Positions 18,198-57,915 of a stretch of DNA of 64,000 bases are shown piece after piece. Position 1 is the first letter of the stretch; each line of letters opens with the position of its first letter. Origin of the DNA: Octopus sinensis (lineage: Eukaryota). Both the position numbers and the translations under genes were made by a program. The notes beneath the pieces were generated by a model. The model saw nothing but the letters and a program-made list of their open reading frames with translations. It made no database searches and was not told the origin of the DNA. The stretch spans positions 147,410 through 211,409 of the forward strand of contig NW_021835998.1 in NCBI RefSeq assembly GCF_006345805.1. The letters run 5' to 3'.

Positions 18198-19077
18198 TGT
18201 CGCAGTCCGGAAGCGTTACGGCGCCGGAAGCGTTACGCATGTAAACAAAAAAAATTAAAAATACGTAAAACAATAATAATTTCATTTGAAAAGAAAAAAT
18301 ATCTATAAATATTAATAAATTATGAATAAATTTTAATCATTTTATCAAGTGTGTATAATGCGTTTAGTGCAAATAACAAAAGAATCCCTACAGAAAATCA
18401 AGGAATTTCAAGAAAACCCCTGTGATCTTCTTTTGGAGGATTCATCGTCTCGGATGAAATGATTTAGGCTAGCAAAATTGGCTATGTCATTTGTTTTTGA
18501 AGGCGAAACGCCATTCATTTGGCACAATAATCTAAAATTACGTTTTTTTTGTACGGATGAAACTGAATTGAGACGCAAATTTGTTGAGGTATGTATTTGA
18601 ATACAATATCAATAGGTTGAACACAATATTAATCACTTTGTCGATCTCCGAAGATATTCGGAAATTAATGACTCATTTAATTGGGTATTTGCCTTCTCTT
18701 AAACGATTAGATTCTTGTTATTGTTGATTCTTTTTCGAAATATTCCATGGTCGAGTTAGCTTATTCAAAAAGCTCCGCTGAAATTACATCTCTATTTCAA
18801 AAAGTTTTTTCTACGTGGGGCCTCCATTAATACTGCATACGGACAATGGCAAGGAATTTTGTAATGCCCATATGATTCGGCTTTGTGAAAAGTACAACAT
18901 AAAGCATGTACGAGGAAGACCAAGGGCTCCCTGGATTCAAGGTCAGGTAGAAAGGTTATAATTTGACTAAATTTAAATGTTTATAGGCTCAATCAAAGTA
19001 TAAAAAGGTGGATATCTTCCAAAAGTTATTCAGATGGACATTTTGGACGAGACTGCGATATTATCAAAGACATCATA

Positions 19078-21662
19078 CACCCCTCGACAAAAAATTTGGT
19101 TATTTAATCTTTCCTGCTTTTTTTCATTTAAAAACGAATAAATTCATACTTTAAGATCCTTTAGATCTTCTAAAATAATATTTATTTTGTATTTATAATT
19201 AAAATAGATTTAAATTTTATTATTGCAAGAAATTTAAAGCATGTCGGCAATTAGGTTAGTGACATAAAAATTGGTTATAAAATTTAGTATTTAGAGATTG
19301 ATCTTAATAAAAAAATATTTTTAGATATAATACTCTCGATTCGTTTATGAAAGGGAAAATAATTGCGCTATACGACTTAAATATGTCATATATTAAAATT
19401 TCTAAAGAAACCGGTGTTCCATATTCAACAGTCGTAAATTTTATCAAGAAATACAATAAAACTGGATCATATGACCGCCAACATGATTCTGGAAGACCAT
19501 CAATTTGAATAATGTGCAAATTAATCATTTGGTACCCACATCAGAGGAAAATTCATCTTTAACTGCTTCTGAACTCTCTAATGAAATAGAAAAGTTTTCT
19601 GGAACACGTGTCTCGTCTCGAACCATAATACGAAATTTAAATAAAAATGGAATTTTCGCAAGAATTGCAAAGAAAAAACCACTTCTAATAAAAAAACACA
19701 TGGTTTCCAGATTCGAGATCGTCCAAAAATTTCTTCAAATTTCAGACCATGATTTTAGATCAATAATCTTTCCTGATGAATGTATTTTTGAATTATTACC
19801 GATCCAAAAAAGAAAAATTGTGTATAGAAAAAAATTTGAAATGAATAAATTCGAAAATATTACTCCAACTGTCAAATTTGGAAAAGGTAAATTATGATGT
19901 AATAAAAAATTAGGGAAAGTCATGGTGTGGGGTTGTTTTTCCTATCATGGGGTAGGCGATTTGGTATTTATAGACAAAACGCTTAATTCTGCAAAATATC
20001 AATCTATTTTGACCAATAATTTGCCATATTCTGTACAAAAAATGGGGATTGTTGACTATATTTTTCAACAAGACAACGCTCCCTGCCATACATCAAAAAT
20101 GATTATTCAATATTTTCGCGAAAAAAATATTAAAAAATTAGAATGGCCTTGGCAATCTCCGGATTTAAATCCGATAGAGCATTTGTGGGCTTATATGAAG
20201 GTTCAAATTAGGCAAAGAAAAAATGAGAACATTCAGGCACTGAAGGAAAATCTATTAGATATTTGGAATTCTATTCCATCAAAAACACTTGAAAATTAGT
20301 TGAGTCAATGAAAAAAAGGTGGTGGGAGATCTATTCGGCAAAAGGAGGTTATTCTACATATTAATCTCACAATAACCAAATTTTATGCCAATTAAAGTCG
20401 TTGTTTTTTCCAAATTTCTTAGACAAAATTTCAAAATTTAAATAATTAAATTAATTTTTATCAATTTTATCAGATTTTAAAATACAGTGAATACCCCCAA
20501 ATTCGCCAATTCTTAGATTCGCCTTTTTAAAAAAAAAATTCTAGTTTCAATGGAAATTCGCCAATTCTGAAATTCGCCACAATTTTTTAAAATTTTTAAA
20601 TAAAAAATACAAAAATATGGATAAATAATACATTTTTAAAAAGTTCTTGTTCGAGTTTGAAAAAAGACATGAATTCCGTCTGAAAAAATTGCATGGGCAG
20701 ATAAAAATTATGTTCTTTCCTAAAAATGCAATAAGAATAATTCAACCAATGGACTTGGGAATTATCAAAACATTTAAAGTGCACTTTAATAGGCACCAAT
20801 TATTTTATCTCACTATAATTTTGGAAACTGACAAAGTTTCGATTTATGAATCCTATAAACATTTAAATCTTAAGGACACTGTTTTTTTATAAAAATGGCT
20901 TTGGAAGACGTATGCTCGAAAACTATTGAAAATTACTTCAAAAACTGAAAATAATAGATTTTGATGAACAGTCTACAGATAAAAATTTAATTGATGAATT
21001 GATAATTAAAACAGATATTTATGATCCTATTCAAATTGAAAAATTCATTTCTATAAATTATTTAGAAGAAAATGCAATTAGCGAAGAAAGTAATTTCGAT
21101 AATGAAGATCCTGAAGAACAATCTGCAGATAAAAATTTTTCCTTCAAATGAACAAACAATATTTCATCTCACTAGAAATGAGATTGGTGTAAAATTAAAA
21201 GAAATTGAGAAGTCACTAATCGAAATAGTCGAAAACGAAGATGTGCGTCTATACCATTTTTGCTTGCAGATGACATTTGAAGTTTGTAATTGTCAAATTG
21301 ACTTGAAAATGGTATAGTTACTTCAATTCGAAGATTTGAGGAAAAAAATCAAAATACAAAGAGACAACAAACAGGACTGGAATATTACTTTGATAAAAAA
21401 GCATAATTCTTTGTTAAAATAAAATTAATTTTTTCAATTACGTCAATTTTGGCTGTTTTCGAATTATTAAACATTTCTACTCACATTCAAAAATTATTGA
21501 TTATATTCTGAAATTCGCCATTTCTCAAATTCGCCGCAAAAAATGACGGAACCAAAAATAGCGAATTTGGGAGTATTCACTGTATATCTGAAGAAAAAAT
21601 TAAATCATTCTTTCTATGAATGAAGTAAGTTGAAGATTCACCAATATTTATGTCGAGGGGTG
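19078..21662 (+). mobile_element. Tc1-like transposon (with nested Tigger)
   Basis: Ends CACCCCTCGACA / TGTCGAGGGGTG with TA flanks; TVKFGK|GKVMVWGCF across a 27-nt intron (19887-19913); QQDNAPCH, SPDLNPIEH. Confidence 0.85.
20485..21582 (+). mobile_element. Internally deleted pogo/Tigger element inside the Tc1 right end
   Basis: TIRs CAGTGAATAC(C/T)CCCAAATTCGC, TA flanks, IQPMDLGIIKTFK. Confidence 0.85.
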
Positions 21663-22329
21663 TATTTGACTACAACAATACTGTTCATTCTACTACACGG
21701 AATATCCCATTCTACATCTTTATGGGAATGCAATTTCCAATAAGAACGAGTGATGAAGAATTAGAACAACTCTACTGTGTCACTGAAAAATTTGACGATC
21801 TAACGAATTCAAGACAAGAAACATACTCAAATATTTTACAAGCTGCGGAAAAAATGGCACAGAGACGAAGATGGAAGTACGACGAAGAACCTTTATGCAT
21901 AGGAGGGGAGGTAATAATTAGGTTACAATATTTAAACATGTAATTTATTTAGACAAGAAAATGATGCGAATGTAAGGCAATATCCTTTATATGACGGATT
22001 ACACATGGAAAAGTACACGATCATCGAGAGGGAAGGCGACATATGTACGCTAGAAAGTGAAAGCGGAGAAAAAATGGAGAGAATTCACATCTACCGATTA
22101 ATTAAAATCGGAATGCACCCTACAAATACTTAACTTTTGTAAAGTGCGTAATAAATATAATTTTTGTTGATTTTTTTTGTTTTTCTGGTGGTTTATTATG
22201 GAATTGTGTATTGATACAAATTGAATTTTTACATATTCTTATATATTATGATGAACATATTTTCATTTTATTTTTCTATTTGCTGTTTATTTTTCATTAT
22301 TCATTATTAGTATATTTATTGCTATCTCA

Positions 22330-22760
22330 AGTCTTTTCGTATACCAAGGAAGTCGATTTGAAAGCATTCATAAATCCTGATAAACATTATTAACAGTGAT
22401 TAGTGCGTTTTCTGATTTGGTTTATGGAAATGTGCCAAAAGATTGCTCAATTTATCTGGCCATAACGTCATATTTTCTAATTATAAGATCAAAAAAGTCA
22501 TATTTTTAAGTTCAAAATTCTGAAAAATCTATACGAAGAGTTCAATGTAGTTCAGATACATGGAAGAGAAAAACAATCCCCGTACACAGAGGATTGTAGA
22601 ACGTTTAAATCAAATCATCACCCGAAAACTCTTCAAAATGATAGACACAGATGAAAAAAAGTGGCTGGAAATTCTCAAAAAGCAGTGTACTGTTATAACA
22701 AGCCTGTACACTCATTTTTCAAATCAGAGTCTTAAACGAATCCCCAGAGAAGGTTGGTTG
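22330..22760 (+). pseudogene. Degraded Ginger-like integrase core
   Basis: QIHGR..NNPRTQRIVERLNQIITR. Confidence 0.55.
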
Positions 22761-22764: not shown

Positions 22765-23559
22765 AATGTACAGGAACTTGGCTAGAGGGAGCCAGAGTAC
22801 CTTTGGAGGATATCATAAGATTTATTTTCTTGTGGGCCAATAACATATCATCGGTCAAAGTGTGTTCAGACAATTTGGGGTGGGCTGGGCATACGACTGT
22901 GAATTGGTTGATGTACCTTCGTGATATTTGCATACAATCACTCACATCTCGTCGAAGAAGGAAAATAGGTTAGTGTATATTTAAATAGTATTAGGAGGTG
23001 AAGGAATGATAGTCGAGATAGATGAGAGTCATTTCTCAAAACGCAAATTTAACAAAGGCCGAGTATTGCCCAAGCAATGGGTATTTGGAGGGATATGTCG
23101 AGAGACAAAAAGCTGTTTCCTTGAGATGATCCCAGACCGTACAATGGAGACTCTCTCAAATGCGATATTGAACAATGTTGAAAAAGGAACTATTTTAATA
23201 TCGGACTGTTGGAAAGGATATTCTTCGGAATTCCTTGAAAGTGCAGGATATCATCATTTAACTGTGAATCACAGATACCACTTTGTCGACTCTACTACGG
23301 GAGCATACACACAACACATTGAACGGTTTGAAATTAATAATTAATTAATAGTATGTGGGGGAGCGCAAAATGGCGCAATAAGAGACAGAGAGGGACTGTC
23401 CGCAGGCATATGAATAGCTACTTCTCAGAATTTATCTGGAGGCAAGAACACAAGAAACAGGAATTTAAGAAAATTGTCAAAGCTATATCAATATGCTGGC
23501 CACCTCAGACCAAAGTGGAGGATAAATTAGTTAAATATTTAAAAAAAATTAGTAAATAA
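22765..23559 (+). mobile_element. Merlin (ISXO2/IS1016-like) transposase, 5'-truncated, two 26-nt introns
   Basis: KIG|GEGMIVEIDES (intron 22969-22994), WVFGG, SDCWKGY, TVNH, TQHIER|MWG (intron 23326-23351). Confidence 0.85.
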
Positions 23560-23617: not shown

Positions 23618-25399
23618 TGTCGCGACCCACGCTGGCGACCATCCAACCTTCATTTTGACAGGTTATGACCTTCAGTGATGTATTTTTGACATTAATTGCG
23701 ACCATCAGTTGACAGGTGATATATCGATGTATTTTTGTATTAATAAAAAAAAACTAAAGACATTTTAACACTTAAAAAAATTAACACTTTTTAACTCTGT
23801 TCATAGTAACTATCTTGGTTTCATTTCCTAATTCGATCTAAATGTTAGGAAAAACAACTAACCATTAATCTGTTATTAGACATTATATTTTTTACTTTTC
23901 CCTTTTCTTCATATGGGGATTCAAATCTGTGTAGCTTCAATGACGGATTCGTCCCACAATCTTTTAAGATTCGAACCTAAACTGTTATTATTTAATTATA
24001 CCTCATTCCCTATTTCAAAATCATATTTTGACCTGTGTACTCCCATCTTTGTATTCATTCTTTTAAAATAAGATGAATTCATGTCTGGAGGAGTGAAATT
24101 AAAAATTTTGTTATTCGTTTCTAAAATAAATACATCGTAAATTTACCACTAAGTTCATCTTCGACAAACAATGCCTCATTATTTTCATCTAAATTATAAA
24201 TAAGATTATAACCTGGTATTTCATGAATCACAGTGTTAATTCCAGAAATACCCCTAAACTTTTTGAAGGGGGTCTCATTGATCGCCGAGTGGTGTGTCGT
24301 ATTATAAGAAAAAGTTACTGTGTCTAAAAATCGTTTCCAATTTTTAGTTCCCTCTATTTCCATCATTTTGGCCAGAGCACGAGTTAAGGTTTGGTTAAAC
24401 CTCTCAATCACACCCTAAGTTATATAAACTAACAAACTTGTGACTGAGGATGGTTTGGCCTTCCATAAATATGCTTAATTTTGTTTTCCTCGCATAGTTG
24501 AGCCATAAGTTGGTTTTTGAATTCCAACCCGTTGTCCGTTTGCAAGATCTGACAATATCCAATTTGATAAAACAATTTTTGGAATTTATTCACCACTTCT
24601 TCAATTAAATTTTAAGTCTTACCAGAAGCAGTTTTATTTTTTAAAGATTTGCAGACAACAAATTTGCTGTGGATGTCAATAATTGTCAGTATCCAATTAA
24701 ATCCATCGTTAAACTCTTTATATCTTCTTACATCAATAAGATCCGCCTGGAATCTTTCATTGGGTTTTCCTGCAGTTACATGGTAATTAGAATCCGACAC
24801 CTAGGTATATTTTTTTTACATACTTTCAATGGTAGGGCAAATTTACAAATTTCGCAGTCTTTTATAATTTGTTTGATGATTGGACGTTTTACAGTGAAAT
24901 AGAATTCACTGCACTTTTTCTGAAGCTTTCGTATTCCCCAGTGGGATTCTTGGTGAATGGCGAATGCTAGTGTCCTCATCTCCATTTCATTGTCCAGACA
25001 AATGACCAATTTGTGTTTTTGGTTATTCTCGTCCTTTAGATAAAGACTATGAGTTAGGAGTCGCAAATATACCGATCATTAATAATGATAAATTGAGTCG
25101 CTTTTTTCATAAGTTTGTATTTTTCTGACTTGGATGTAGTCATCACTGGTTGTTGAAGTAGTACACTTCTCAGATTTTGGTATTCACTGTCGTTTTTCAC
25201 GTAGCCTAAGAATTAAGACTATATGAGCTAACATCTTTTGAGAGAAACCATAATTTTTTTCTAAAACGACGCTAAACCATTTCTTAAAATGAATTTTTTC
25301 CGGTTTAAATATCAAACTAATCACCTGTCAAACTGAAGGTCATAACCTGTCAAACTGATGGTCGCCAGCGTGGGATGGTCGCCAGCGTGGGTCGCGACA
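23618..25399 (-). mobile_element. Complete Ginger-like integrase DNA transposon, 1782 bp
   Basis: TIR TGTCGCGACCCACGCTGGCGACCATCC at both ends, TAGTA duplicated at 23613-23617 and 25400-25404, subterminal TGACAGG repeats. Confidence 0.92.
23781..25251 (-). CDS. Integrase-type transposase, 423 aa after removal of eight micro-introns
   Basis: Exons 25251-25233, 25205-25073, 25046-24824, 24800-24623, 24598-24438, 24414-24147, 24120-24002, 23976-23863, 23837-23781 total 1272 nt with no internal stop; HQESH..CEIC, FQADLID, QTDNG, D35E GVIERFN. Confidence 0.88.
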
Positions 25400-26039
25400 T
25401 AGTATTATTTTGAAACTCGCTAAAAAGTGGCTGTAGACTACTACAAAAGTAACAAAAAAATAATCAATAAAATAGTGGAAAAAGATAGAAATACTAAAAA
25501 ATCCAAATAGACAATAGAATAGAATTAAATTTAATGTAAAAAGTTATGAATGGAGATGAATTAATTGATAAAGTGAATATAAATTCGCTTGCAAAATAAA
25601 CTTTATCCAAGATATTTTACCAGTAGTCAAATTAATTAATCTTCAAACAAATAAATAAACTTTTTTCTGCATTTTGGTTAAAATGAACAACTACAATGTA
25701 AAGAAATCACTAATTAAGAGGCGGAACCGCAGACGAGAGGAGGATCGAGGCGGAAAAAAAAAAATAAAAATAAAAATAAATAAATAAACAAAAATGTTAA
25801 ACAATAAAACATTAATAGCAAGAAAAAAATGAAATAAAATTTAACAAACAGAAGCACAACAGAAGATAAAAAAACATTAATAACACGTGATAATTTATTT
25901 CAATTAATTCGATAAATTTCGAACATTTAAAAAATTATATAAATAACATTTAATATTGTCAGTCATTTTGAATTCAATTAAGTTTTTTTTTCCAAAACGA
26001 GCTGCTTCCCGGATTCAAAAGCGAAAAGCGTACAGCCGT

Positions 26040-26423: not shown

Positions 26424-27820
26424 GGTACCTGGACGACGCGACCATTGGCGGCTCTGTGGAATCCATCACCGAGAACCTATCCCGCCTAATCCCTGCTTTG
26501 CGCATCCTTGGCCTAGAAGTTAACGTGAATAAATCGGAACTCCTAAACCTCAACTACCCTGAGGCGGATTTTCTGAATGTCAATATGATCATCCAAGACT
26601 TCATCACTTGTGCACAAGTAACCCAGCCATCAGAAGCAACCTTTCTTGGATGCTCTTTAAGCCCATCTGGCCTAAAGGCCCATCTGGCGAAGAAGGACAT
26701 GGAATTCTGTAACCTCAAAAGCAGTCTCTTGGAGTTAGACTCGCACATCGCTTTTTTCCTCATGAAAAGCAGTATACAGTCTGTAACAGCAAAAAGGAAT
26801 ATTCTTAAAACACCATTTAAAATTAAATAATATTCATTTTAAATATTTAAATCACTCTAATGACATTAATTATTATGTAATTACGTTTTTATAAATTTTA
26901 AAAATCTTTGAAAATACATAATTTTAGTTAATTATTTGAAATTTTGTATGAAACACACAGCAAAGCTTACTAAACAATTTTTGAATGAAAAAAATGTTGA
27001 ATTGTTGCAATGGCCCCCCAATCTCCTGATTGTAACCCAATCGAAAACTTATGGGGAATAATTAAAGAGAAAATAGCAGAAAGAGCGCCTCAGAATTTAA
27101 AAGATCTAAAGGCCGAAATTTTAAACGTTTGGAATGAATTTGATAAAGAAATATGCAAAAAATTGTCGTTAAGTTTTAGAAAAAGAACATTGGACCTTCG
27201 TCGTGCCAAGGGAAAATATATTAACTATTAATTCAATGGTTTTTATTGTTGGGTTTTGATATATTACTTTTTGCTGTTACAAAATTTCAAATAATTGACT
27301 AAAATTATGTATTTTCAAAGATTTTTAAAATTTATAAAAACGTAATTACATAATAATTAATGTCATTAGAGTGATTTAAATATTTAAGATGAATATTATT
27401 TAATTTTAAATGGTGTTTTAAAAATATTCCTTTTTGCTGTTACAGACTGTACATATGCCAAAACTTCTTTACACGCTCCGCTGCTTGTCATGCTACTCGC
27501 ATCCAGACATTCTGTCTTCCTTGGAAAAATCATTGAAATTCTGCGCGGAAGCAGTTCTGAACATTTCCTTTGACGAAATCGGTTGGACTCAAGCAAAACT
27601 TCCCGTCAGGTTCGGAGGGATCAGTCTTCGCTCGCCTAAAAATCTGACGCCACATGCACATTTCTCTTCAATTTCCAGAAGCCGTCAACTTGTCCGAAAG
27701 GTTCTACTCCCCTTCAACGAACTCTCTCTGGAGTTGCCGACTGCCGACTTCCTAGAATTCTGGACTGACGCGAACCTACCCCTCCCGTTCGACATGTCCG
27801 TGCAACGGGAATGGGATAGA
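26424..27820 (+). mobile_element. CRE-like RT C-terminal fragment interrupted by a Tc1-like element
   Basis: YLDDATIGG..FFLMKSSI[insertion]HMPKLLYTLRC..QAKLPVRFGG. Confidence 0.8.
26777..27449 (+). mobile_element. Internally deleted Tc1-like element with ~170-bp IR-DR-type TIRs
   Basis: CAGTCTGTAACAGCAAAAAGG ends, TA flanks, inner repeat TTTTGCTGTTACA, QSPDCNPIENLW. Confidence 0.85.
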
Positions 27821-28137
27821 GGGGGTCAGCCTACCGCGAACAAAACTCTCTACGTGACCCCCGAAAAGATCAGTGGGAGTGGCCTCCTGTTGAAAATTTT
27901 TGACAAACTTTACAAACAAAAACATTTGACACAATGTGTCATTGACGAGGTTCACTGTGTTAGTCCGGTCAATACATTGTGATTTTTAGTGGGTGATGAC
28001 TTTCGTCCATATTATAAACGATTTTATTTGCTCAAAACCGGGTTTAGCTGAGTTCCATTTATGTTGTTTACAGCCACGGCAACTGAGCGTGTGAGGATTG
28101 ATATCCTTCATCAAGTCCAAGTGAGTACTCCTAAATA
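27821..28137 (+). pseudogene. RecQ/BLM-family helicase fragment (copy 2 at ~34950-35266)
   Basis: LYVTPEKI..VIDEVHCVS|W..DFRP..VPFMLFTATATERVRIDI; 22-nt intron 27968-27989; frameshift and stop present. Confidence 0.8.
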
Positions 28138-29963
28138 CAGTGAACCCTCTCTATAGTGAACAGGCCATATTAATGCAATCTACAATAACAAATATCAGTA
28201 ATTCTCATTAATATATTTATTATAAAATGAATACCACGTTTAAAAATGTATAATATCATTTATTTAAATATTTTTGTGTTCACTATTAAAGAATAGTGAA
28301 CGTCAAATTTTTGTGAACATAAAAATATTAAATTTAATATTTTTACATATATATTTAAAATTCTTTAAAATGAATAAACTACACGTTCTACAGTTGTTAG
28401 CATGGTGGAAAATCGAAAACGCCTGTCATTTTTTCAAAAGAAGGAAATAATCGAATTTTATCATAAAATAGACATTACACACAGCGCGATTTATCCCTTT
28501 ATTTCAATGTTTCTCTGGGCTGCATAAACAAAATTTTGAAAAATTCTGAAGGAATACTTAATGTTCAAGATGACCAAAAAAAGAAGAAAATTTACTTGCC
28601 CAAGTCTCAACCATTCGACAGAGATCTATTTGAATGGTTCGTTAAAAAACGATCATTTGGATTTACAATCAATGAATATCTTTTGAAGTCCATGTCTCTA
28701 AAAATGGCGAAAGTTTGTAATATTCAAGGATTTCAAGCATCAAATGGATGGCTTGAGAAATTTAAAAATCGATATTGCATTGCTTCCCGTGCTTTATGTG
28801 GGGAAAATTAATTTGTTGAAACCTCTGTGATTGAAAATTTTACAGAAAGCCTCAATAGAAAATTAGAACAATATTGTTCAAAAAATTTTTTTAATTTGGA
28901 CGAAACTGGATTGTTTTTTAAACTTTTGTCGAACAGAACATTAGCTGTTGACTCGGACAAAAATCTGTCTAATAAACCGATAAAAGAAAGAGTAACTGTT
29001 ATGTTTTGCGTTAGTATGATGGGAGAAAAACTTGACCCATTTGTTATTGGAAAAGCCAAAAATCCACGCTGCTTTAAAGGAAGAAGAAATTTAATTAATA
29101 ATTTACAAGTGGAACTCAAATCAAATAAAAAAGCATGGATGACATATGGTTATTTCTCAGAATGGCATATAGAATTGAACAAAAAATGATAAAAAGAAAA
29201 ATTCTAATTTTACTTAATAATTCGACGTACACTTATATGATTTAGAATTCAGTAACATCAAACTCTTTTTTCCCCTCCAAATACAACATTGAAATTAAAA
29301 CCCAGGAATAATAAAATCATTAAAAGACAACTATAGACAACTCCTATGTGCATACTTGATTGAATTTTATATAAATGATAGCAATGTAGATCACGAAAAA
29401 GTTACGGAAAAGTTGAAGAAATTTACTCTATTGAATTGCTTGATATCCATAAATCAAGCTTGGTTAGAAGTGTCGGAATTAACAATTACAAATTGTTTCA
29501 AGAAAGCATTTGAAAATGCGTTAATGCAGAACCTGACAGAAATAGAAGAAATAGATGATGAAAATTTTTTGATTCATGCAAATGATCAAATTGACGACGA
29601 AAACTTTATACAAAACTTCGCGAGAAAACTAAAACAGCAAGACCAAGTTGAAGAGGAAGAGGAAAAATTTATGTTCCGACACTATATGAAGCTAGTGAAT
29701 ATGCGAAGGCGCTTGAATTATGGTTTCTTGAGAATGATTATGAACAAAGAGGAAAAGTATACGAAATACAAAAAATTTTAATAAATTATCAAACTAATCA
29801 TTCTCAAAAAATCACCGATTACATTATTAAAATCTCTAAATAATCTTTGTAATTATACTTTAATATTGTTTATTATTATTTTGATTCCTTTTGTTCACTA
29901 TAGACAATAGTGAACATGATGTTTTGACGTGGACATTTTGTTCATTATAGAGAGGGTTGACTG
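28138..29963 (+). mobile_element. pogo/Tigger-like transposon, copy 1 (defective)
   Basis: TIRs CAGT(G/C)AACCCTCTCTATA, TA flanks, FQASNGWLEKFK, FNLDETGLF. Confidence 0.9.
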
Positions 29964-29965
29964 TA

Positions 29966-30430
29966 GTACAGATGAAAATCCACATTCACATAGCCATGTT
30001 GTTGCAAATTGTTACTAAACTTCCAGTGCTTACTTTGCAAGTTTCGGAAACCTAACTTTCGGAGATCAAGGCCGCCTACGACAGTGGATAAGGCATCCAA
30101 ACTGGGAGTTGAGATCTCCAAGTCATTAGTTACTAAACATGTTTATTCTGCAGTTCTGAAAGTGGGTTTCTTTTTATACCAAAAATCATTTTAACATCTC
30201 AAATCTTTGTTGAAATGTGGCACTTATCAAATTGAGTGATATTATTAACAATGGCCTGATATCCATTGGGATGCTTTACGTCATCAGAATTTCTCAAATT
30301 ATAATTTTAGCGTCAATTTTGGCTATTCAATTAAAGTAGTTAGCTCTCATCTTCAGCTGCTTTTGTCTGCATTGCAAACACTGTATTTAAAGCGGATTAG
30401 ATAACTATTCTTAGAGTATTATTTTCTTTA
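29966..30430 (-). mobile_element. hAT C-terminal dimerisation-region remnant (also in duplication copy 2)
   Basis: FPKLAK*AL..QFATTWLCECGFSS. Confidence 0.55.
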
Positions 30431-32640: not shown

Positions 32641-32919
32641 ACAAGGGACTATGGCATGACAGAGAAGCTTAACGGAGAGCTTCCGGAAAACATTTTTAGT
32701 TTTTGGTTATTAAGTTAAATTTTGGGGTTAATTTTTTTAGTTTTTAGGTTCATAAAGTTAAATATTATGTTAAATTTTTTATTTTGTAGGCTAAAAATCG
32801 CCCTAAATATAAGTAAGAAAATGATGACATTTCGTGTCAGCGATTAACTGATAGATTCTCAAACATATTCGGGAGGCGCAGTTTCGGACCTTACCTGTCC
32901 TATGATCAATTACCACTTG

Positions 32920-33128: not shown

Positions 33129-33279
33129 TTGAAATTTTTTATAAATTAAACTAACTTTGTAATTTTTTAAATAATGTAACAAAAACTAGGGGTGCTTTTA
33201 TACTTTTGGGAGAACTTAAATAAAAACAATTATGTTATTGAAAATAAAATTTTATTACAAATAAACAAGTGTCCCAAGA

Positions 33280-41649: not shown

Positions 41650-42460
41650 TGATTGGATCGTTAAAATTTCCCGAAACAACATATTTGATATTGTTTACTG
41701 CTCCTAACAAGAACACTTCGCAATAATTTGGTTCAAAGGCAAAATTTCCTTTGTTAATTTCGGATTCAGAAAATCATATGAAATCAGGTAAACTTTTATG
41801 CTTATATTTTAGCTTTAAAATACTTAAAAATCTTTACACCAAGTTATTCCATGTCAGATGTGCCGTTCATCTATTACACAATTGCTGTGAGAAAATAAGA
41901 GAATCTTAACTGGAATTGAATGATAGCTACTGTACAAGCTGCAATTATCAGGAACAATAGAAGAAAATTAATATTCAAAGACAGAAACATCACCATTTCA
42001 TTTGACAAGATGGGGTTCCTGGCATAAGGCCGCTACATACTATTCAGAAAATCTGATCGGAATTCAAAATATTTTTGAATCATTCGCGGATAATGGATAT
42101 CTAATTTGAATATCCGAAGCTATTCTAACAATCCAGGTTTCCAAATAATGTCGCTATTGCAAATATTGTTACAAAATTTGAAAGTTAGGATTTGGAAATG
42201 GCAACAAATTTATTAAAAATACATATACAAAAAGCTTCAAAAATGATATTTTAAACATAATTAAAATGATCAATTCACATATATCTCCTGCCGAGTATTT
42301 ATTACTCCAGAATTGTCAGTCAACTTCGTGCTGGGTTGAAAGATGTGTCTCTGAGATAAAGATTTTTTTAGTTCCAACCGAAATTTTCTACCAAAAAATT
42401 TAAAAAACAAAGTAATTCGGTATGTGTATAATAGTTGTAGTGTTTGTAGTTTTTTATGAC
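41650..42460 (+). mobile_element. Degraded hAT-like transposase
   Basis: FHVRCAVHLLHNCCEKIR, TRWGSW, QSTSCWVERCVSEIK..NRNF. Confidence 0.6.
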
Positions 42461-45399: not shown

Positions 45400-46300
45400 T
45401 TAGTTTTACCGAAAATTATTGGAATTTGAAATGCGGTTTGAAAAATGGCGGATCAGCCAAATGAACGATGGCATTTTTGAAATGGAAAGAATTAAAATGC
45501 GATAAAGTCATTAATTGACTAATATCAGGTGCTCCGGAGAAAATAACTCAACGTTCTTGCTCATTAATGATAAGAATAGTCCGTAAAAACCAAGAATTAC
45601 TCGAAAAGAATTGGCTGATGATTTAAAAATTACAAGAACATCAGCTTGGCTTTGTACAATTAATTCTACATTACGCAATGAAAGTATCAATAAACAAAGG
45701 ACCAGTCGTGTTCCGTTATTAAAAAAATACACACCTCTACACAAATTAGATATTCCAAATATCTTTTAAATAAAGAAAATAAATTCATAAACAATATTTT
45801 ATGGTCGGAAGAATTTCAAAATACAACTTTTAGGACTGAACTTGTCGCCTTCGATTTGGCGTAAATTCGATCAGACAAATAACCAAAAATGCACCATACC
45901 TATCATAAAGCACTGGGTAGGAATTATCATGCTGTTAAGCTGTTGTTCATTAACAGGAAGAATCACGCTGTTGGGCTATTTTTCATTAAAGTATCATGCT
46001 GTTGGGCATTTATTTTTAATAGATGGAATAATGAATTTGCTCAAATATTGAAAAATCTTGAAACAGTGCCTATTTCGTGCGGTCGATAAATTGAATTTGA
46101 CCAACAATTGACATTTCAGCATGGCAGCGACTGAATGGTTAATAAGGAAAAAAATTAATGTTTTGAAATGGCCAAGCAAATCACCAGACCTCAATCCAAT
46201 CAAATATCCATAAAAAATAAAATAGTAGAGTTGAGAGATTAAATAGTAAAAATGAAAAGATGTAAATGATGAAAGTGAAAAAAAAGATTAAATTATTGTC
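45400..46300 (+). mobile_element. Degraded Tc1-like transposase
   Basis: [26 protein letters not shown]. Confidence 0.7.
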
Positions 46301-46714: not shown

Positions 46715-46810
46715 TGTCGCGTCCCATACAAGCTACCCATCCCATGGTTGCTACATGTTGCCTGTCAATCTATTATAATGCCTGTCATAGTGACTGTCAA
46801 AATCAATTGA
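46715..46810. mobile_element. Isolated Ginger-like terminus
   Basis: TATTA-TGTCGCG followed by (C)CTGTCA repeats, as in the complete elements. Confidence 0.6.
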
Positions 46811-47624
46811 ATTGGTTCATAATCAATAAAATGAAGTGTATTTATTAAAAGATCAATAACTGTTTTAACAATAAAGAATTTATTAAAATTAGGCGTATAT
46901 GTTTTTTACTAAATATTTTAATATCTATAAGTTCTTGTTGAAATTCTTCATTTGGTTTTGAATTTGCTCAAATATTGCAAAATCCTGAAACAATGCATAT
47001 TTCGCGAGGTCGATAAATTAACTAAATATTTTGATATCTATAAGTTCTTGTTTAAATCTTTCATTTGGTTTTTTGGGAATCACATAGAATTAAAATCGGA
47101 AACCTAAATTAAATTTATTAATTTTATACTTTAAGTGCTATAGAAAACTTGCAAATTGAGCATTCTTTGATAAATCGTTCTATAATTTTCCGCTTTACTG
47201 TAAAATAAGAGTGTAAACAAGTTAATAATTTTTACAGAGTGTAAAGATCCAAAGTATATTCGTGAATTTCGATGAGAATCTGCAATATTTTTTCATTTCA
47301 CTCTTATTATCAACGCAAATAACTAGTTTGTGCTTTTGAAATCTTTTGTCTTTGAAGTATTAGCGGTCATCGATAACAATAAATTTGGTAGATTTTTTAG
47401 TTATATTTTTTATTTTTATTGGGATGTCTGTACAGGTTCGTCATTTAAGATACTCACAATAAATTGATATTCTGATAAATTGATATTTTATATATAGGCA
47501 AAAATATTTTAGAGAGGACATGTTGAAAATTCTGAATAACGCTAAAAAATATTAAATATCTCCCCTACGAGTAACGCATGATAAAAACTACAATAATTAT
47601 GACATCTGGCAGTGTATTGTTTGC

Positions 47625-48440
47625 ATTAAAAAAGAAACTAATTAACTAAGTCATTTTTCTAACTAAGTCCAGAGCCTTTGAAGTGAGCAGAGAGTGGAAC
47701 TCCACGCACCTCCTCGCCTTCTTCCTCCTCTTCTCTGGCACTGTAGACCTTCAGAAGGTGCAGTCCAGCGCCTTTCGCTGACTAAACGTCAGGATCTTTG
47801 AAGACCGAGCGAACAGCTTAATGTCGTCTATGAACATGAGATGGTTGGTGCTAAAACACCCTCTTTCATGTTCGATCGACATTTGTTCGAATTGGGCAGT
47901 GAGGACTTTACTCAGCGGTTCTAGGCAGAGGACAAACTGCAGTGGCGACATGCTGTCGCCCTGTAAAATGCCCCTCTCTAGCTTAACTTCGCCTATATCG
48001 CATTTGTTGTAGTGTAGATGCACGTTCCACCTGTCCATCACAGTTGCAACAAATTTGATAAACCACGAAGGCAACTTGAGCTTTCGCAGACACTCAACGA
48101 GGTAGGCATGATAAACCGAGTCATATGCTTTCTTCACATCCACCCACATCGACACTAGTGAGTTTCTGTGGGCTCTCGCGAGGCATTTGTTGATCAGTGC
48201 CTGGTCCTTAGCTTCCTGGCAATCCCGCCGAGTACCTAACTGGTTCTCGGACAGAATCCCATTCACCTCCACGAAATTTCTGACCTCAGTAGCCACCACC
48301 TTGGTCATCAACTTGTACAGGTTGGGCATACAGGTTATTAGACAATAATCTGTCGGAGCGGAAGGGTTATCTACTTTAGGGATCAAATAAGTGACCCCAG
48401 TACATAATCACTCTGAAATCGAGCCAGGATCTAGTGTAAA
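47625..48440 (-). mobile_element. R4-like RT core joined by deletion to the element 3' end
   Basis: WVDVKKAYDSV, GILQGDSMSP, HLMFIDDIKL fused to LTFSQRKALDCTF. Confidence 0.85.
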
Positions 48441-51843: not shown

Positions 51844-54800
51844 ATAAATATTTTAAATGATCGAAAATTTAAAAACATTAAAAAATAGTAAAGTTAGCGT
51901 CGGAAATACATTTAAGTTTGGCAATAAGAATAAGGCTAAAAACAGACTTTGGAATAGGGATTATTATTAGAACCAAGATCACCGTCCAAAACATAAAACT
52001 AATTAATCAGGTGATCCCGGCTTCTCTGAGGAGGGTCCTCAACTTTGCCCGGTGCTCCTCTCTAGTCCCGGCACAATTTCTGTGAGGGCGCGGTGGTGGG
52101 GTTTTAGGGCCTGTAGCCCCGAGGTTTCTTCCCAAGATTTCATTAAATGGGGCGATGAATAGATGTTCATTCGGTCCTTGCAGTGCTTTTCGAAAGCTTA
52201 CTTGAAATTTTTCGATTTTAACGCGGTTCGTTTCACCGATGAACCCTCCCCACGCCTCACAAGCATAACTAAGGGAGGGTTCGATGAATTGCCGGTATAT
52301 TGATTGGCGTGTGGAGAAGCTGATCCATTGTTTGCATTTTCGGAGAAACACTTTTAAGATGTTCAGTTTCTTCATGCAGCTAGTAGTAACATTTTCAACT
52401 TGTTAGGAGAAACACATATGACTATCGTAAGTCACGCCGAGGATTTTCTGGGATTTTTTAAAGGGAATTTCCATGTTGTTTAGATATAAGTTCACTGCCA
52501 TTTTACCAAGCTTCCTTGCTGAAGTCATAAACGTAGTGACAGGTTTTTCAGGACTCGTTGATAGTCGATTTATCGAGAGCCAACTTTCGAGATTGTGGAG
52601 GTAGTTCTGCAGTTTTGTACTTGTCGTGTTCACCTCACGGCTCCGGGTAGCAATTACAATGTCGTCAGCGTATGATAATACGATTGAGTCTTTGTCGTTT
52701 GGTAGCGGGAGATCTGATAAGAATAAGTTAATAGAGCTGATGAAAGGGGTGAGCCTTGAGGGACTCCGTTTGGAAAATATCGTGACATCGTCTTGTATTG
52801 TTGGATCCTGCCTCTTCGGCCGCTGAGGAAGTTAGCTAGCCACATTTTCAGCCTTAGGTGAATTCCACTAAGGTATATTTTCCTGGTCAGTATTTTTCTG
52901 GGAACGGAGTCAAAAGCCTTATGGATATCCACTGAGCACATAACCGTTTTTTGGTTATACGGTTTGGTAGATAGTCCATCTGAGATGAAATCGTCAAAGT
53001 GTCAAGGTGCGAGGTAGTTGATTTACCACATTTGAATCCATGTTGAAAGTCCAAATCCGGGAGATATTGTTTGATGTGGTTGAGTATAAGTTTTTCCAGA
53101 ACTTTGGAAAGGACGCAGAGGAGAGAAATTGGCCTGTAGGACGCCGGGTTGTCTTTTGGTCTCCCTGGTTTCAGAATAGGGCGAATGTGTGCCATTTTCC
53201 ATAATGTGGGTATTGCGTTGTTGTTTATAGAGAGGTTGTAAATTTGACAAAGAGCTGATATTGCCACCTGTCCTAGATTTTTCACTAGAATAGTAGGAAT
53301 TCCTTCAGGTCCACAAGAGCCAGTGCTTCTTAAATTTCTGATAGTCTGAGACACCTCCTCTTGAGTGAGGATTATCATGTCCCGACATCTTCGAGGTTTC
53401 AACCAGTTCAAGCATGGTCCATCATATTTCCTGTGGGGGATGTTGCTGATCCCAGCGTAGAACTTTATCAGTTTGTTGGTGAAGAGAGCCGCATTATGCT
53501 CACCCGATTTAAATCTCTCCGGGTTTGTGAATCTTCTTAGGGATGCCCATACTTTTGTTAGTGGGACCTCCGCATTTAATCCTCTGGCGAACTTTTCGGC
53601 CCTCCCGTACCGTTTGTCTTTTGCAGATTGTTCTATGACTTTATTCAGTAGTCTGATCCGATGCCGGTTATCTCTTGTAAGATGAGGGCAACCTTTCAAT
53701 GAGTTCCGTTCCTCGATTAGAGGTAGAAGAACCCTCGAAGGAAATTTTCTTACTGGTTTTAGATAAATTTTCCTCATTCTTAAGAATGATTTTCTTCCAA
53801 TCAAAATTGTTCGGTAGAAATGCTTGAGGGCGTTGTCGACCGAGTCGAAATCATGTACATCAAAGTTAACCAGTGCTTTGTCAATGGAATAGGCAAAATT
53901 GACCCAATCTGCGTACTTGTAGTCGTATTTTAGGTTGCGGAACCCCTTTCTAAGGGGCGATTTGACTTGGACTTTTATAATTAACGGATTGTGATCACTC
54001 CGTAAATCGTAGGTAACGCCCCATTTGACCAGAGGTGGGAGGTTGGAAGAACAAAGAATCAGATCGGAAGAGGTAAGCTTGTCCTTGGTGTTGTATGGAG
54101 TTCTTGTGTGCAGTGAGATGTTGTTCAGGATTACAAGATTGTCCAATTGCTCGAGGATAGACTTTCCTCGGGAGTCAGCGGTTTGTGACTTTAACCAATG
54201 CGGGTGTTTTGCATTCAAGTCCCCACAAATGATTAGATTATCGAGATTATCAAACGGGCGTATATCTGTGATAAATTTTTTCGCACACGATCCTGTTGGT
54301 GGGATGTACATATCGCAAATCAATATGTTTCCAACTGAGGTGGGGATAGTAATTGCAGAAAATTCCAGACTCGTGTTTTTGCTTCCTTTAGAGCTGAGCG
54401 AAGGGGAGATCTCCTGGTATTCTCCTGGTACCGGGATTAGATTCCACATCCCCACAGATAGTAAGAAGGGCAAAACGGGAAAGTGAGGTCGACAAAGAAG
54501 GCCGCCCCGGACTGACGATAGTCGCGGGAGGATGAGCGAATGATTCTTTTTTCATTAATCCAATAACTGGATTTTTGCGCCACCACAAAAGGCAAATCAC
54601 ACGACGCATGCTTTGGAATAGGGATAGGAATTAGTGTTAAAGTTAGGGATTCTTATTATCTTATAAATATTTTAAATGATCGAAAATCTAAAAACATTGA
54701 AAAATAGTAAAGTTAGGGTCGGAAATACATTTAAGGTTGGCAATAAGAATAGAGCTAAAAACAGACTTTGAAATAGGGATAGGAATTAGTGTTAAAGTTA

Positions 54801-55140
54801 GAGATCCTTATTATTGTATAAATATTTTAAATGATCGAAAATTTAAAAACATTGAAAAATAGTAAAGTTAGGGTCGGAAATACATTTAAGTTTGGCAATA
54901 AGAATAGGGCTAAGGACAGACATTGGGATAGAGATAGGAATTAGTGTTAGGGATCTGATTTCGGGTTGGATATGGCTCAGATATGGTCAGGGTTAGAGAC
55001 TGGCTAGAGTTAGGGAATAGAATAAGTTTAGAGATTTGATATGGTTAGAGATTAGTTTAGGAAGATTCTTGGTATAGTGTTTGGGATTTATTAGGTTATG
55101 AAATCATTGGTGTTAGCGTTAAGAATAGGATTTGTTTAAC
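51844..55140. repeat. 155-bp tandem repeat with GTTAGG/GTTAGA hexamers, split by a LINE (repeat parts 51844-51961 and 54611-55140)
   Basis: ATAAATATTTTAAATGATCGAAAA at 51844, 54663, 54818; the period is 155 bp once the LINE and one TSD copy are removed. Confidence 0.85.
51962..54610 (-). mobile_element. Ingi/Vingi-like LINE (2A-like peptide, partial APE, RT), frameshifted
   Basis: 15-bp TSD CTTTGGAATAGGGAT (51947-51961, 54611-54625); (TAA)n tail; GDVESNPG, GDLNAKH, SDHNP, YRPISLL, DIHKAFDSV, GVPQGS, YADD. Clade assignment is inference. Confidence 0.85.
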
Positions 55141-55182
55141 AAATAAATGACGTGCTAGTTACTGTGTGTTAGCGTGCCTTGC

Positions 55183-57915
55183 TTATCTAATTACCGAACA
55201 GTTAAACATGTTTTTATTTTTTTTAAATACGAAAAATTTTATCATCTTTTTTAATCTTTGAGAGTGTATCTTTATATGAAATCCTTCACTGTTATATATC
55301 ATGACAAAATTATTAGATAATTTTTCAATAATTTTCACAGGCGAAGAATATGAACTTTCAAATTTCTCTAGTCTGAGAGATGGATTTGTCCCATAATCCT
55401 TCAGAGTTCTTGCCTTTAGAAGTAAAAAAAATGATGTATAATTATCTCCTACTTCAAGATCGTACTTAGAACGATGAACATACATTCTTTTGTTCATTCT
55501 TATGAAATAACAAGAATCTAAATTTATCGGTACGAAATTAAAATCAAAAGATTTTTCTTGTTCCTCGTCTAGTATGATTTATAAATAAAACGTTACTTGG
55601 CAAATCTATTGATGCATTTTTCTCCAAAATTACTGTACCGACTTCTGGCTCTTCATTAGTATTTAAAACATCTGAAAACATCTTAAATTTTGAATCCAAC
55701 TATCGTCTCTGTTTTCACCAACTTGAGAATAATTAACGAATGGATTAAATCCAGGTATTCCACGATATCTCATAAATGGAGTTTCATCTATATTATACTT
55801 TTATTTATTGCACCTGTCGAAAAATGTTTTGTCAGATTATACACATAAACTTCTTTCCTGACATGCTTGATCCAACTTTTGTTTTGATCTTCAGAATCAG
55901 ATTGTTTGAGGGGTGTAGAAAAACAGCAAACGTCACATTTATATATATGCGCCCCTGAATAAGCACAAAAGAGTCCGCTTTCTTAATTAGACTTCGTTTG
56001 CGGAATCTGTTGTTTATCTGTGGAATCTTCCCTTCGAGGATTTTAATTCGTTATATTCAATCTGATCTTGAACGAAGGATCTTTGATTTGATTATGGCAT
56101 GGTTTCAACAAAACAAAAGTAAGCGTTAAACGAGATTAAAAATGTTATATGATTCTGGTACGCTGCTTAAATTAAATTAGATAGATTTTATATATTATAT
56201 ATATTGGAATATTATGTCGCGAGCCGAGCGCGCGACCGAGCGCTAGACGCGACTTTGACACCTGTCATACCTGTCATCCACCTGTCAGTCTAATTGCCGC
56301 GTACCATACTCACCCAGATAAAATATTATCCACGCTAGCATAATTTTGTCTACACTTTGTTATGTCGGGCCAGCGTTTGTTTGTAAAAGATCAAGATGAA
56401 TATAATTTCCTAAGATTATACTCAATAATGAGGAGGTCGATCTTTCCAAACATAAGAAGTATCGACTCAAAAAGAAAGCAGAAAATTTCCTAATTAAAGG
56501 GGAAACTATATCTTAAAGATGTAAACGGCCTACACAAGCTCGTAATTGCTTCACGAGCTTAGAAGAGATGAAATTAATTGCACGTGAGATTCATGAAGCT
56601 AATCATTGCGGACATAATGCTTTGGAAGCCTTATGTAGGCGAAGATTTTTTATTAGAGAGAGAGAGAGATCATTCGCCAAGTTGTTAAAGAATGCAATAT
56701 TTGCAAATTTTCAGTTCCACTAAAACAATATGATGATTCAACTCATATTGTTGCTGATTTACCTAATGAAAGATTTCAAGTAGATTTAATTGATCTTAAA
56801 CGGTATAAAATTAACTTATTTTGTAGATTTAAAAATGAAAACAATGATTTTTCTTGGTTAATGTCTGTAATAGAGTATATTCGAAATATGCGTTTACAAG
56901 GAATCTTAAAAATAAAAGTGGAGTAGAGGTGGCGAATAATCTGAATGATATTTTTATGGATTTTGGTCCCTGCAAGTTTCTCCAATCAGACAACGGAACA
57001 GAATTCAAAAATTCTCATGTGACAAAAGTATGTGAAGAGTTTTGTGTTCGACAAATACATGGAAGACCAAACAATCCCCAGAGTCAGGGAATTGTTGAAC
57101 GATTTAATCAGACGGTCACAAGGAGCCTTTCAAAATTATGAGGTTTGGGTGACACCAAAGAGTGGGTAAAAACACATAAGAAAGACTGTGTTTTGTACAA
57201 TCAAACACCTCATTCATCTACAGGTGAATTATTTGTCTTAAATTTTTGCAGGCGTTAGCCCCTTTGAGAGATATCGTGGAATTCCTGGATTCAATACTGT
57301 TTAGGAAATACTGATGTTGAGGCAGCTGAACTTCAATACACTCCCGAATTAACAGTAAATGTTTTAAATTCAACTAAAGATGAATTCGAATTCAACTTCC
57401 CAAAAGTTAACTTGGATTCTCCATATTATAAGAGAATGAACAGGAAGATGGGAGTGCATGTGTCTAAATATGAATTAAACATTGGAGACATTGTATTTAT
57501 TTTATAATTACTTAAAAGGTTCGCATTCAAAAGATTATGGGACAAATCCTTCCTTGAGATTAACCAGGTTTGAACATCCATACGGGGATCCATTCACTAT
57601 TGTTGCGAAATTGTCTAACAATTTTGTCAATGTGGAAAATAGTGATGGATCAGTAATGAAAGTTCATGCCAAACGACTTAAGAAGTTATAACAGTCAGAA
57701 ATAATAATTGTCCTGATCTAATCAATAAAATAAGTTATTTGACATGATTGACATTGAGTAAATTTGATTGGTCGCGTCTAGTGCTCGGTCGCGCGCTCGG
57801 CTCGCGACATATTATCTCAATTGTACTAACGTTATTTTGTATTTTTTATTGATTTTAGTAGCTAACAAAATCGATATGTGCGCGTCGTGTTCGCGTGCTC
57901 GCTGCGCTCGCGACA
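55183..57915 (-). mobile_element. Decayed Ginger-like element hosting a nested relative
   Basis: MNKRMYVHRSKYDLEVGD..KDYGTNPSLRL; N-terminus RSFVQDQIEYN near 56100; terminus CGCGACA-TAATA at 57915. Confidence 0.7.
56215..57809 (+). mobile_element. Full-length but mutated Ginger-like integrase transposon, 1595 bp
   Basis: ~39-bp TIR TGTCGCGAGCCGAGCGCGCGACCGAGC, TATTA duplicated; HEANH..CNIC, FQVDLID, QSDNG, GIVERFN; introns 56803-56826, 57224-57251, 57493-57518. Confidence 0.9.

What the first reader, a model, noticed from the sequence alone, without database searches (positions are those of the whole stretch)
18198..57915. A multi-family TGTCGC-ended transposon group with a TA-N-TA target site and shared CCTGTCA subterminal motif
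Seen: seven termini begin TGTCGC (18198, 23618, 25399, 46715, 56215, 57809, 57915), although the rest of their TIRs differ. Six of them abut TANTA (TAGTA x2, TATTA x3, TAATA) and the seventh abuts TATTT. (C)CTGTCA/TGACAGG repeats lie just inside the ends at 23650-23720, 25320-25355, 46760-46800 and 56255-56290. The element at 56215-57809 sits inside the 5' end of an inverted relative. Inference: a sequence-specific, quasi-palindromic 5-bp target and a conserved transposase-binding motif across divergent families.
Basis: partly seen in the sequence, partly recalled or inferred. Interest (0 to 1): 0.72.

Follow-up and report, generated by a model that had tools for sequence, protein, structure and literature searches.

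The report
Compact Ginger-type transposons with strict target
These are several related families of a known kind of jumping gene that uses a retrovirus-like integrase; here they are unusually small, one copy is intact with eight tiny introns, and they insert into a symmetric seven-base AT-rich site, duplicating five bases.

Summary
The seven TGTCGC ends are termini of five insertions of Ginger-type (Ginger2/Tdd-like) DNA transposons encoding an HHCC + DD35E integrase. The element at 23618-25399 is intact: 1,782 bp, 423 aa, eight introns of 23-27 nt. Short-read contigs show the empty site of 56215-57809 with one TATTA, so five bases are duplicated; 2 bp and 4 bp are excluded. All seven ends have A at -6, so the target is the palindrome ATA-N-TAT, the animal Ginger2 site RTATAY plus one central base. 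Corrections: seven ends are five events; CCTGTCA occurs in 3 of 5 families and flips orientation; and the TIRs do not simply differ, because all five families share a 17-18-bp repeat register, a better candidate for transposase sites. The nearest named proteins are from microsporidia, and a published Nosema MITE matches one TIR at 30 of 39 positions but shows no ANTA flanks. Palindromic AT-rich targets are the rule for integrase elements. Verdict: new variant of a known kind, modest interest.

The parts
23618..25399 (-). Intact element E23618, 1,782 bp, TGTCGC...GCGACA, TSD TAGTA on both sides, 27-bp perfect and about 60-bp imperfect TIR
23781..25251 (-). Transposase gene, 9 exons, 8 GT-AG introns of 23-27 nt, 423 aa; H82 H86 C115 C118, D145 D206 E242 (DD35E)
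   Evidence: Pfam rve and Integrase_H2C2 hits on exon frames, most below the curated cut-off because they are fragments
23656..23716 (+). TGACAGG repeats inside the 3' end of E23618 (inward positions 39 and 93)
25324..25352 (+). CCTGTCA repeats inside the 5' end of E23618 (TGACAGG inward, positions 48 and 70)
56215..57809 (+). Element E56215, 1,595 bp, 39-bp TIR (38 of 39 match), TSD TATTA; full-length integrase gene with three tiny introns, frameshifted in this assembly
56261..56287 (+). Three CCTGTCA copies inside the 5' end of E56215 (inward positions 47, 56, 67)
55186..57915 (-). Host element of the nested insertion: 5' end at 57915 (flank TAATA), interrupted 105 bp in by E56215, internally deleted integrase at 56044-55186, 3' TIR not found
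46715..47481 (-). Deleted relative: 3' end at 46715 (flank TATTA), CCTGTCA at inward positions 47 and 67, N-terminal integrase remnant 47481-46911, 5' TIR not found
18198..22135 (+). More distant relative: 5' end at 18198 (flank TATTT), integrase pieces 18550-19017 and 21629-22135, split by nested Tc1-like and pogo-like insertions; 3' TIR not found; the GCGACA at 22041 is inside coding sequence
22487..22760 (+). Fragment of a sixth relative (catalytic core), no termini found
41990..42037 (-). Candidate further end, TGTAGCG with outside flank ATAGTA; no partner, no integrase homology, no 17-bp period; unproven

Best explanation
The ends belong to five families of one lineage of compact Ginger-superfamily (Ginger2/Tdd-like) DNA transposons. 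Each encodes one four-domain integrase (N-terminal extension, HHCC finger, DD35E core, SH3-like C-terminal domain) and has no reverse transcriptase. Shown: structure, intact gene in one copy, 5-base duplication, ATA-N-TAT at both full sites, nesting, 17-18-bp repeat register in the TIRs. Inferred: the integrase pairs the two ends on tandem sites spaced 17-18 bp apart, frees the CA-3'OH ends, and a two-fold symmetric complex joins them 5 bases apart across ATA-N-TAT; it reads two ATA half-sites and ignores the middle base, and host repair makes the TANTA duplication. This is the animal Ginger2 half-site with the stagger widened from 4 to 5. CCTGTCA is an accessory subterminal site in one sub-branch, for the integrase or for a host factor. 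How the element is excised is not shown and is described as unknown for Ginger1 (PMC2836005).
For: Pfam rve and Integrase_H2C2 on element frames. Spliced 423-aa ORF without stops, 47% identical over 418 aligned residues to P0001. A model of P0001 matches prototype foamy virus integrase over its whole length, E 5e-20. Ends fit the TGTNR rule; TDD-4/5 make 5-bp TSDs; Ginger2 targets RTATAY. Only 2 or 5 bases fit as TSD at 2 of 2 paired elements; a contig joint skips 1,600 = 1,595 + 5 bases, 2 contigs, depth 911. A at -6 in 7 of 7 ends. Best self-match lag is 17 or 18 in 5 of 7 ends, at least one end in 5 of 5 families, shuffle p from under 0.0002 to 0.013. In the tree the window proteins fall with KRBA2-like and related stand-alone integrases, apart from 4 Gypsy and 2 Copia rows (SH-aLRT 99); KRBA2 belongs to the GINGER2 clade. 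Odd-length TSDs with a free central base in a longer palindrome are general.
Against: Only five insertion events, one of which (18198, TATTT) breaks the rule, and three are seen from one side only. No TDD-4 or named Ginger2 sequence could be put in the tree (FASTA supplements unreadable); the window clade is separate from the KRBA2-like clade, the tree is the quick one without bootstrap, and E18198 is 43% filled with a long branch. The Nosema MITE NbT19 with a matching TIR shows ANTA in 0 of 7 left flanks, so the strict target may be local. The joint was found at 85% likeness, where the tool warns of repeats, and the letters between its sides were 'not known'. The 17-bp period is absent at 23618 (p 0.69), borderline at 56215 (p 0.08), and the lag was noticed before it was tested. 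No binding or transposition data.
Confidence: 0.82

Rival explanations
1. The target preference is only a liking for bendable AT-rich DNA; the strict look of TANTA comes from a small sample.
For: Five events; 18198 does not fit; flanks are 73% A+T; NbT19 flanks are AT-rich but 0 of 7 are ANTA; AT-rich palindromes and flexible steps are general for integrases.
Against: P(at least 4 of 5) = 2.4e-7 at the local TANTA rate; A at -6 in 7 of 7 ends; both full sites are exact ATA-N-TAT palindromes; 0 of 14 non-terminal hexamers have TANTA.
Confidence: 0.12
2. CCTGTCA/TGACAGG is a host transcription-factor site or an inherited remnant, not a transposase site. The TGTCA core resembles TALE-homeodomain sites (recalled, not from a call).
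For: Present in 3 of 5 families, reversed in E23618, outside the 39-bp TIR of E56215, degenerate at 57809; 4.3% of 2000 shuffles give a comparable shared 7-mer; not in the first 400 letters of NbT19.
Against: It sits at both ends of E23618, at the same inward positions 47 and 67 in 46715 and 56215 and at 48 and 70 in 25399; background is 0.013 copies per 120 bp.
Confidence: 0.4
3. The duplication is not 5 bp: either a Tc1-like 2-bp TA, or 7 bp (ATANTAT) with ends GTCGC...GCGAC.
For: 2 bp fits both paired elements by sequence; the joint has 7 letters that fit either side.
Against: The empty site lacks element + 5 bases, which rules out 2 bp with TGT ends. Seven bases would need GT...AC ends, against the TG...CA rule of integrase elements.
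Confidence: 0.04
4. They are remnants of LTR retrotransposons (solo or inverted LTRs), or a separate group (Polinton-derived, IS481EU, a third Ginger group) rather than Ginger2/Tdd.
For: Databases label the nearest proteins 'Gag-Pol polyprotein'; the C-terminal domain aligns with that of Ty3 and foamy virus integrase; the clade is separate from the KRBA2-like rows.
Against: A complete 1.8-kb element with TIRs, eight spliceosomal introns and no RT or RNase H excludes a retro-element; Polinton and IS481EU lack HHCC and have other TSDs. A distinct Ginger subgroup is not excluded.
Confidence: 0.15

Closest known systems
Ginger2/Tdd DNA transposons (Bao, Kapitonov, Jurka 2010, PMC2836005)
   Same: TGTNR ends, TIRs, single HHCC + DDE integrase, no RT, introns, AT-rich palindromic target; 5-bp TSD as in TDD-4 and TDD-5.
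   Different: 1.6-1.8 kb against 2.7-6.7 kb for the listed autonomous families; TIR 27-39 bp against 45-297; target ATA-N-TAT with 5-bp TSD against RTATAY with 4-bp TSD in animals; eight 23-27-nt introns; 17-18-bp repeat in the TIR, not mentioned in the parts read.
KRBA2/SCAND3-like GINGER2 transposases (Llorens 2012, PMC3575427)
   Same: Nearest named non-microsporidian group in the profile search; same side of the tree against Gypsy and Copia.
   Different: A separate clade; matches cover only about a third to a half of the query and miss the lineage-specific C-terminal motif.
Stand-alone integrases of microsporidia (Dictyocoela, Nosema granulosis, Pseudoloma), annotated as Gag-Pol or transposable element
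   Same: 41-47% identity over the whole protein to P0004 and P0001, 57-62% in the core; E23618 and E56215 group with Dictyocoela at SH-aLRT 96.
   Different: The microsporidian proteins are continuous reading frames (458 aa on a 1,475-bp contig, 424 aa on 1,466 bp); their ends and TSDs could not be read.
Nosema bombycis MITE NbT19 and the unclassified TGT-ended, 5-6-bp-TSD MITEs of He et al. 2015 (PMC4405373)
   Same: NbT19 starts with TGTCGC and matches the E56215 TIR at 30 of 39 positions without gaps, with the same 17-bp register (counted by eye).
   Different: Filed there as Tourist-like, non-coding, no transposase assigned; 0 of 7 left flanks are ANTA; right ends were cut in the text copy, so TSD length is unread.
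Ginger1; GingerRoot/IS3EU; IS481EU; Polinton
   Same: Integrase-like DDE enzyme with TIRs.
   Different: Ginger1: 4-bp CCGG/CCGT TSD, OTU or Ulp1 domain. GingerRoot/IS3EU: TA ends, 6 bp. IS481EU: no HHCC, 4/15/25 bp. Polinton: 6 bp, AG ends, no HHCC.

Membership tests
Ginger superfamily (broad) | Single transposase homologous to Gypsy integrase with HHCC finger and DDE core | tested here: met
Ginger superfamily (broad) | TIRs with TGTNR termini | tested here: met
   TGTCG at 7 of 7 ends; TIR pairs at 2 of 2 complete elements
Ginger superfamily (broad) | No reverse transcriptase, RNase H or LTR inside the element | tested here: met
   the 423-aa gene fills the 1,782-bp element
Ginger2/Tdd | 4-bp (animal) or 5-bp (TDD-4/5) TSD | tested here: met
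   5 bp
Ginger2/Tdd | Preferred target RTATAY (from 64 Nematostella copies) | tested here: not met
   ATA-N-TAT at 2 of 2 full sites; same half-sites, one extra base
Ginger2/Tdd | TIR about 45-300 bp | tested here: inconclusive
   39 bp; 27 bp perfect and about 60 bp imperfect
Ginger2/Tdd | GPY/F and YPYY motifs absent | tested here: inconclusive
   no literal GPY/F or YPYY in the E23618 protein, but a beta-rich C-terminal domain aligns with Ty3 and foamy virus integrase
Ginger2/Tdd | Clusters with TDD-4 and the named Ginger2 families | not testable with these tools
   reference FASTA unreadable; only indirect placement beside KRBA2-like rows
Ginger1 | 4-bp CCGG/CCGT TSD and C-terminal OTU or Ulp1 domain | tested here: not met
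IS481EU / IS3EU / Polinton | No HHCC motif; TSD 4/15/25 or 6 bp | tested here: not met
   HHCC present, 5-bp TSD
Gypsy or Pao LTR retrotransposon | Direct LTRs, gag-pol with RT, no introns in the integrase | tested here: not met

The most novel reading that the evidence does not exclude
This is an undescribed third Ginger lineage, shared by horizontal transfer between microsporidia and an intron-dense eukaryote. In this host it took up tiny introns family by family, tightened its target to a near-strict 7-bp palindrome and widened the stagger to 5 bp. Its ends carry arrays of 17-bp-spaced transposase sites, as Mu- and Tn7-type ends do (recalled) and retroviral ends do not. It would also supply the missing transposase for unclassified TGT-ended Nosema MITEs, and at 423 aa and 1.8 kb would be the smallest intact, probably recently active model for how an integrase-only enzyme excises a transposon.
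Probability: 0.3. Interest if true: 0.6.

Novelty: new variant of a known kind. Interest (0 to 1): 0.36.

Why it matters
Ginger elements sit between LTR retrotransposons and cut-and-paste transposons, and their excision step is unexplained. A minimal intact copy with defined ends, a candidate site array and a strict target makes that question easier to ask. RTA-TAY against ATA-N-TAT is a natural pair for how an integrase changes stagger while keeping its half-site. The link to microsporidian proteins and MITEs would correct 'Gag-Pol' and 'Tourist-like' labels and offers a case of intron gain in a transposon gene. None of this overturns current views.

Tried and rejected
No whole genome is held, so the genome-wide TSD logo could not be made. 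Metagenome (79 loci) and viral (17 loci) scans with the alignment gave only distant integrases, best segments 20-46% identical; a TIR/TSD scan of all 96 loci showed no member of this lineage with readable ends. The degenerate TIR pattern found 0 matches in viral contigs and 0 in prokaryote genomes. Earlier scan notes held nothing on this genome or protein; one loosely related note came up by words. Runs X2 and X3 hold next to none of the stretch and were not used. The very high depth in the bin over 56215 may be short TIR-bearing copies or low-complexity AT-rich contigs; not used. GCGACA at 22041 was rejected as the partner of 18198 (inside coding sequence, flank ACATA). TGTCGC at 40276/40309 lies in the end repeat of a FLYWCH-bearing element, and 31236/42149 and 31637/43185 lie inside longer duplicated stretches. 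The end at 42037 stays a candidate. The careful tree did not finish; the quick tree was used. No host gene was found among 80 of 159 long frames scanned, so host lineage was not tested. Literature searches for TANTA with TSD and transposon gave 0 papers; ATANTAT, RTANTAY and related terms gave 26 papers, of which the 15 listed were all unrelated; Dictyocoela with transposable elements and integrase gave 0. Repbase and most subscription papers are not in the library.
Full report
Observation. The window is 35.5% GC and holds 21 TGTCGC hexamers on both strands. They are termini for reasons that do not depend on the flank: 23618/25399 and 56215/57809 are inverted-repeat pairs, and 18198, 46715 and 57915 each lead into integrase homology. 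The other 14 hexamers are internal, and 0 of 14 abut TANTA. The seven ends are five insertion events. TANTA holds at 4 of 5; at the local flank rate (34 of 2,302 positions) the chance of at least 4 of 5 is 2.4e-7, with the caveat that the motif was picked from these sites. All 7 of 7 ends have A at -6, and both complete sites read A-TANTA-T, so the target is the palindrome ATA-N-TAT.

TSD length. By sequence, only 2 or 5 bases are repeated at 2 of 2 paired elements; 4 bases fails at both. Contigs of run X1 laid on 55100-58000 show a joint from 56208 to 57809 that skips 1,600 bases, element (1,595) plus 5, in 2 contigs of summed depth 911, against 93-104 for two copy-specific contigs nearby. 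Other copies of the outer family therefore carry one TATTA, which excludes a 2-bp duplication and confirms the nesting. The tool warns that joints at this likeness can come from repeats (here the wanted case) and that depth is not copy number. Seven letters fit either side of the joint, so a 7-bp duplication with GT...AC ends is formally possible; the TG...CA rule of integrase elements argues against it.

What the elements are. Frames inside them hit Pfam rve and Integrase_H2C2. E23618 splices, with eight GT-AG introns of 23-27 nt, to a 423-aa frame with H82, H86, C115, C118, D145, D206 and E242, filling the 1,782-bp element. E56215 has a full-length gene with three tiny introns and several frameshifts. 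At 56497, 56551 and 56874 high-depth contigs differ by 1-2 bases, giving the frame change seen (my frame count), and two high-depth contigs of 188 and 265 bases differ by one gap and no substitution. This looks like assembly error in a young family, though copy-specific decay is not excluded. The elements at 46715, 57915 and 18198 are deleted, and each lacks its other end. Intron positions are partly shared: E23618 and 46715 share one, E23618 and E56215 share another, and others are family-specific.

Relatives. The core of E56215 found 5 proteins at E up to 1e-10 among 29 candidates, 4 from Dictyocoela at 57-62%. The representative search gave 327 proteins at that level; of 10 top ones looked up, 2 carried a name. 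A 19-sequence profile found 199 proteins, 120 listed; the named top hits are Dictyocoela, Nosema granulosis and Pseudoloma, then Acaulospora, then KRAB-A domain-containing protein 2-like proteins. In a 64-row quick tree (SH-aLRT only) E23618 and E56215 group with Dictyocoela and one unnamed protein (96), inside a 23-row clade rich in microsporidia (92); E18198 falls elsewhere in that clade on a long branch with 43% of columns; these and the KRBA2-like rows stand apart from 4 Gypsy and 2 Copia rows (99), with one Polinton-like row on the same side. A model of P0001 (pLDDT 77.6) matches foamy virus integrase end to end and Ty3 integrase next.

Known systems. Bao et al. 2010 (PMC2836005; parts 1-3 of 5 read; alignment files unreadable) define Ginger2/Tdd by TGTNR ends, HHCC + DDE, 4-bp TSD in animals, 5-bp TSD in TDD-4/5 and target RTATAY, and call excision of Ginger1 unknown. 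Llorens 2012 (PMC3575427; part 1 of 3 and passages) place KRBA2 in GINGER2. Kojima and Bao 2023 (PMC10045372; passages) give 4 or 5 bp for Ginger2. Zhang 2013 (PMC3845634; passages) report TATA for an insect Ginger2 MITE. Linheiro and Bergman 2012 (PMC3276498; passages) show that target motifs are generally AT-rich palindromes longer than the TSD, free at the centre when odd, and shared by related families. Serrao 2015 (PMC4422553; abstract and one section) show that 4- and 5-bp staggers coexist among retroviral integrases. GingerRoot (PMC6839031), fungal transposons (PMC5751038, which lists Ginger in one microsporidian) and microsporidian TEs (PMC7313128) were seen as passages. I file the elements in the Ginger superfamily. 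They work like Ginger2/Tdd, but I do not file them there because RTATAY is not met and no reference could be placed in the tree.

Subterminal motif. CCTGTCA/TGACAGG is far above background (7 copies in 63 kb outside the ends) and keeps position: 47 and 67 in both 46715 and 56215, 48 and 70 at 25399. But it is in 3 of 5 families, reversed in E23618, degenerate at 57809 and absent at 18198 and 57915; 4.3% of 2,000 shuffles give some 7-mer with at least four G/C shared by three families. A stronger shared feature lies inside the TIR. Without gaps, 12 of 36 columns agree in at least 4 of 5 families (0 of 5,000 shuffles), and the best self-match lag among 8-23 is 17 or 18 in 5 of 7 ends, at least one per family; 23618 lacks it and 56215 is borderline. 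I noticed the lag before testing it. He et al. 2015 (PMC4405373; passages and supplements; cells cut at 400 letters, the family table in .doc and the alignment figure not readable) note unclassified TGT-ended MITEs with 5-6-bp TSD in Nosema. Their NbT19 matches the E56215 TIR at 30 of 39 positions in the same register (by eye), lacks CCTGTCA in the part held, and shows ANTA in 0 of 7 four-letter left flanks. The unseen right ends bear on whether its TSD is 4 or 5 bp. This supports the repeat register as the conserved element and suggests that the strict target is local.

Mechanism. Shown: anatomy, intact gene, 5-base duplication, palindromic sites, nesting, repeat register. Inferred from integrase chemistry: the enzyme pairs the ends on tandem sites, exposes CA-3'OH, and a symmetric complex joins across ATA-N-TAT with a 5-base stagger; repair duplicates TANTA. 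Excision is assumed to be cut-and-paste and is untested. The host looks intron-dense, since Tc1-like and Merlin genes nearby also have 26-27-nt intron candidates, unlike the continuous microsporidian frames. Horizontal transfer is therefore plausible, but the host was not placed and many rows of the clade are unnamed.

Verdict. A real feature and a new variant of a known superfamily.

Noticed in passing
window 1-64000: The window is a pile of nested transposons; no host gene was seen among the 80 of 159 long frames scanned, plus 29 element frames. Hits: several RT-bearing non-LTR fragments, pogo/Tigger, Tc1, Merlin, FLYWCH and Spin-doc finger genes.
   Followed up: partly
window 19200-21584: A Tc1-like element and a pogo-like element with inverted ends (about 20488-21584) sit side by side inside the integrase gene of the 18198 element.
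   Followed up: partly
window 17979-18197: The 18198 end truncates a Spin-doc zinc-finger frame (PF18658, hAT/Spin-like); its continuation was not found.
   Followed up: partly
window 19887-19913, 22969-22994, 23326-23351: GT-AG intron candidates of 26-27 nt in Tc1-like and Merlin transposase genes; tiny introns seem to be a host-wide trait.
   Followed up: partly
window 1149-1397: Tandem 54-60-bp units rich in TTAGGG-like repeats directly after a non-LTR retrotransposon C-terminal frame (267-1232); similar GTTAGGG-rich repeats at 54611-55100. Resembles telomere-associated retro-elements (recalled).
   Followed up: no
window 26930-29970 and 34059-37112; 31310-34070 and 42859-45606: Two near-identical multi-kilobase duplications (offsets about 7.13 kb and 11.54 kb), plus an inverted copy 30531-31312 against 42073-42852; recent duplication or assembly artefact.
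   Followed up: no
window 27840-27980 and 34970-35110: Short frame end resembling a RecQ-type helicase motif (by eye, no Pfam hit) fused to a retrotransposon frame.
   Followed up: no
window 16536-17385 and 61401-62518: Tandem arrays of 110-bp and 93-bp units; a 54-bp stretch at 25646-25699 is an inverted match to the 93-bp array.
   Followed up: no
window 5121-5882, 37581-38117, 47751-48407: Non-LTR retrotransposon frames that look like a group common in microsporidian genomes (recalled, not searched); if true, more than one element class is shared with microsporidia.
   Followed up: no
window 41990-42037: Possible eighth end, TGTAGCG with outside flank ATAGTA and one TGTCA inside; no partner or coding homology.
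   Followed up: partly
L005 5-5059: A metagenome contig with a distant integrase between long perfect inverted ends starting TGTGTCGC and flanked by AATT; possibly another Ginger- or Polinton-like element.
   Followed up: no
PMC4405373 supplements 4 and 5: Several Nosema families filed as Tourist-like have TGT...ACA ends whose four-letter flanks fit a 5-bp duplication; they may be solo LTRs or Ginger-type MITEs.
   Followed up: partly
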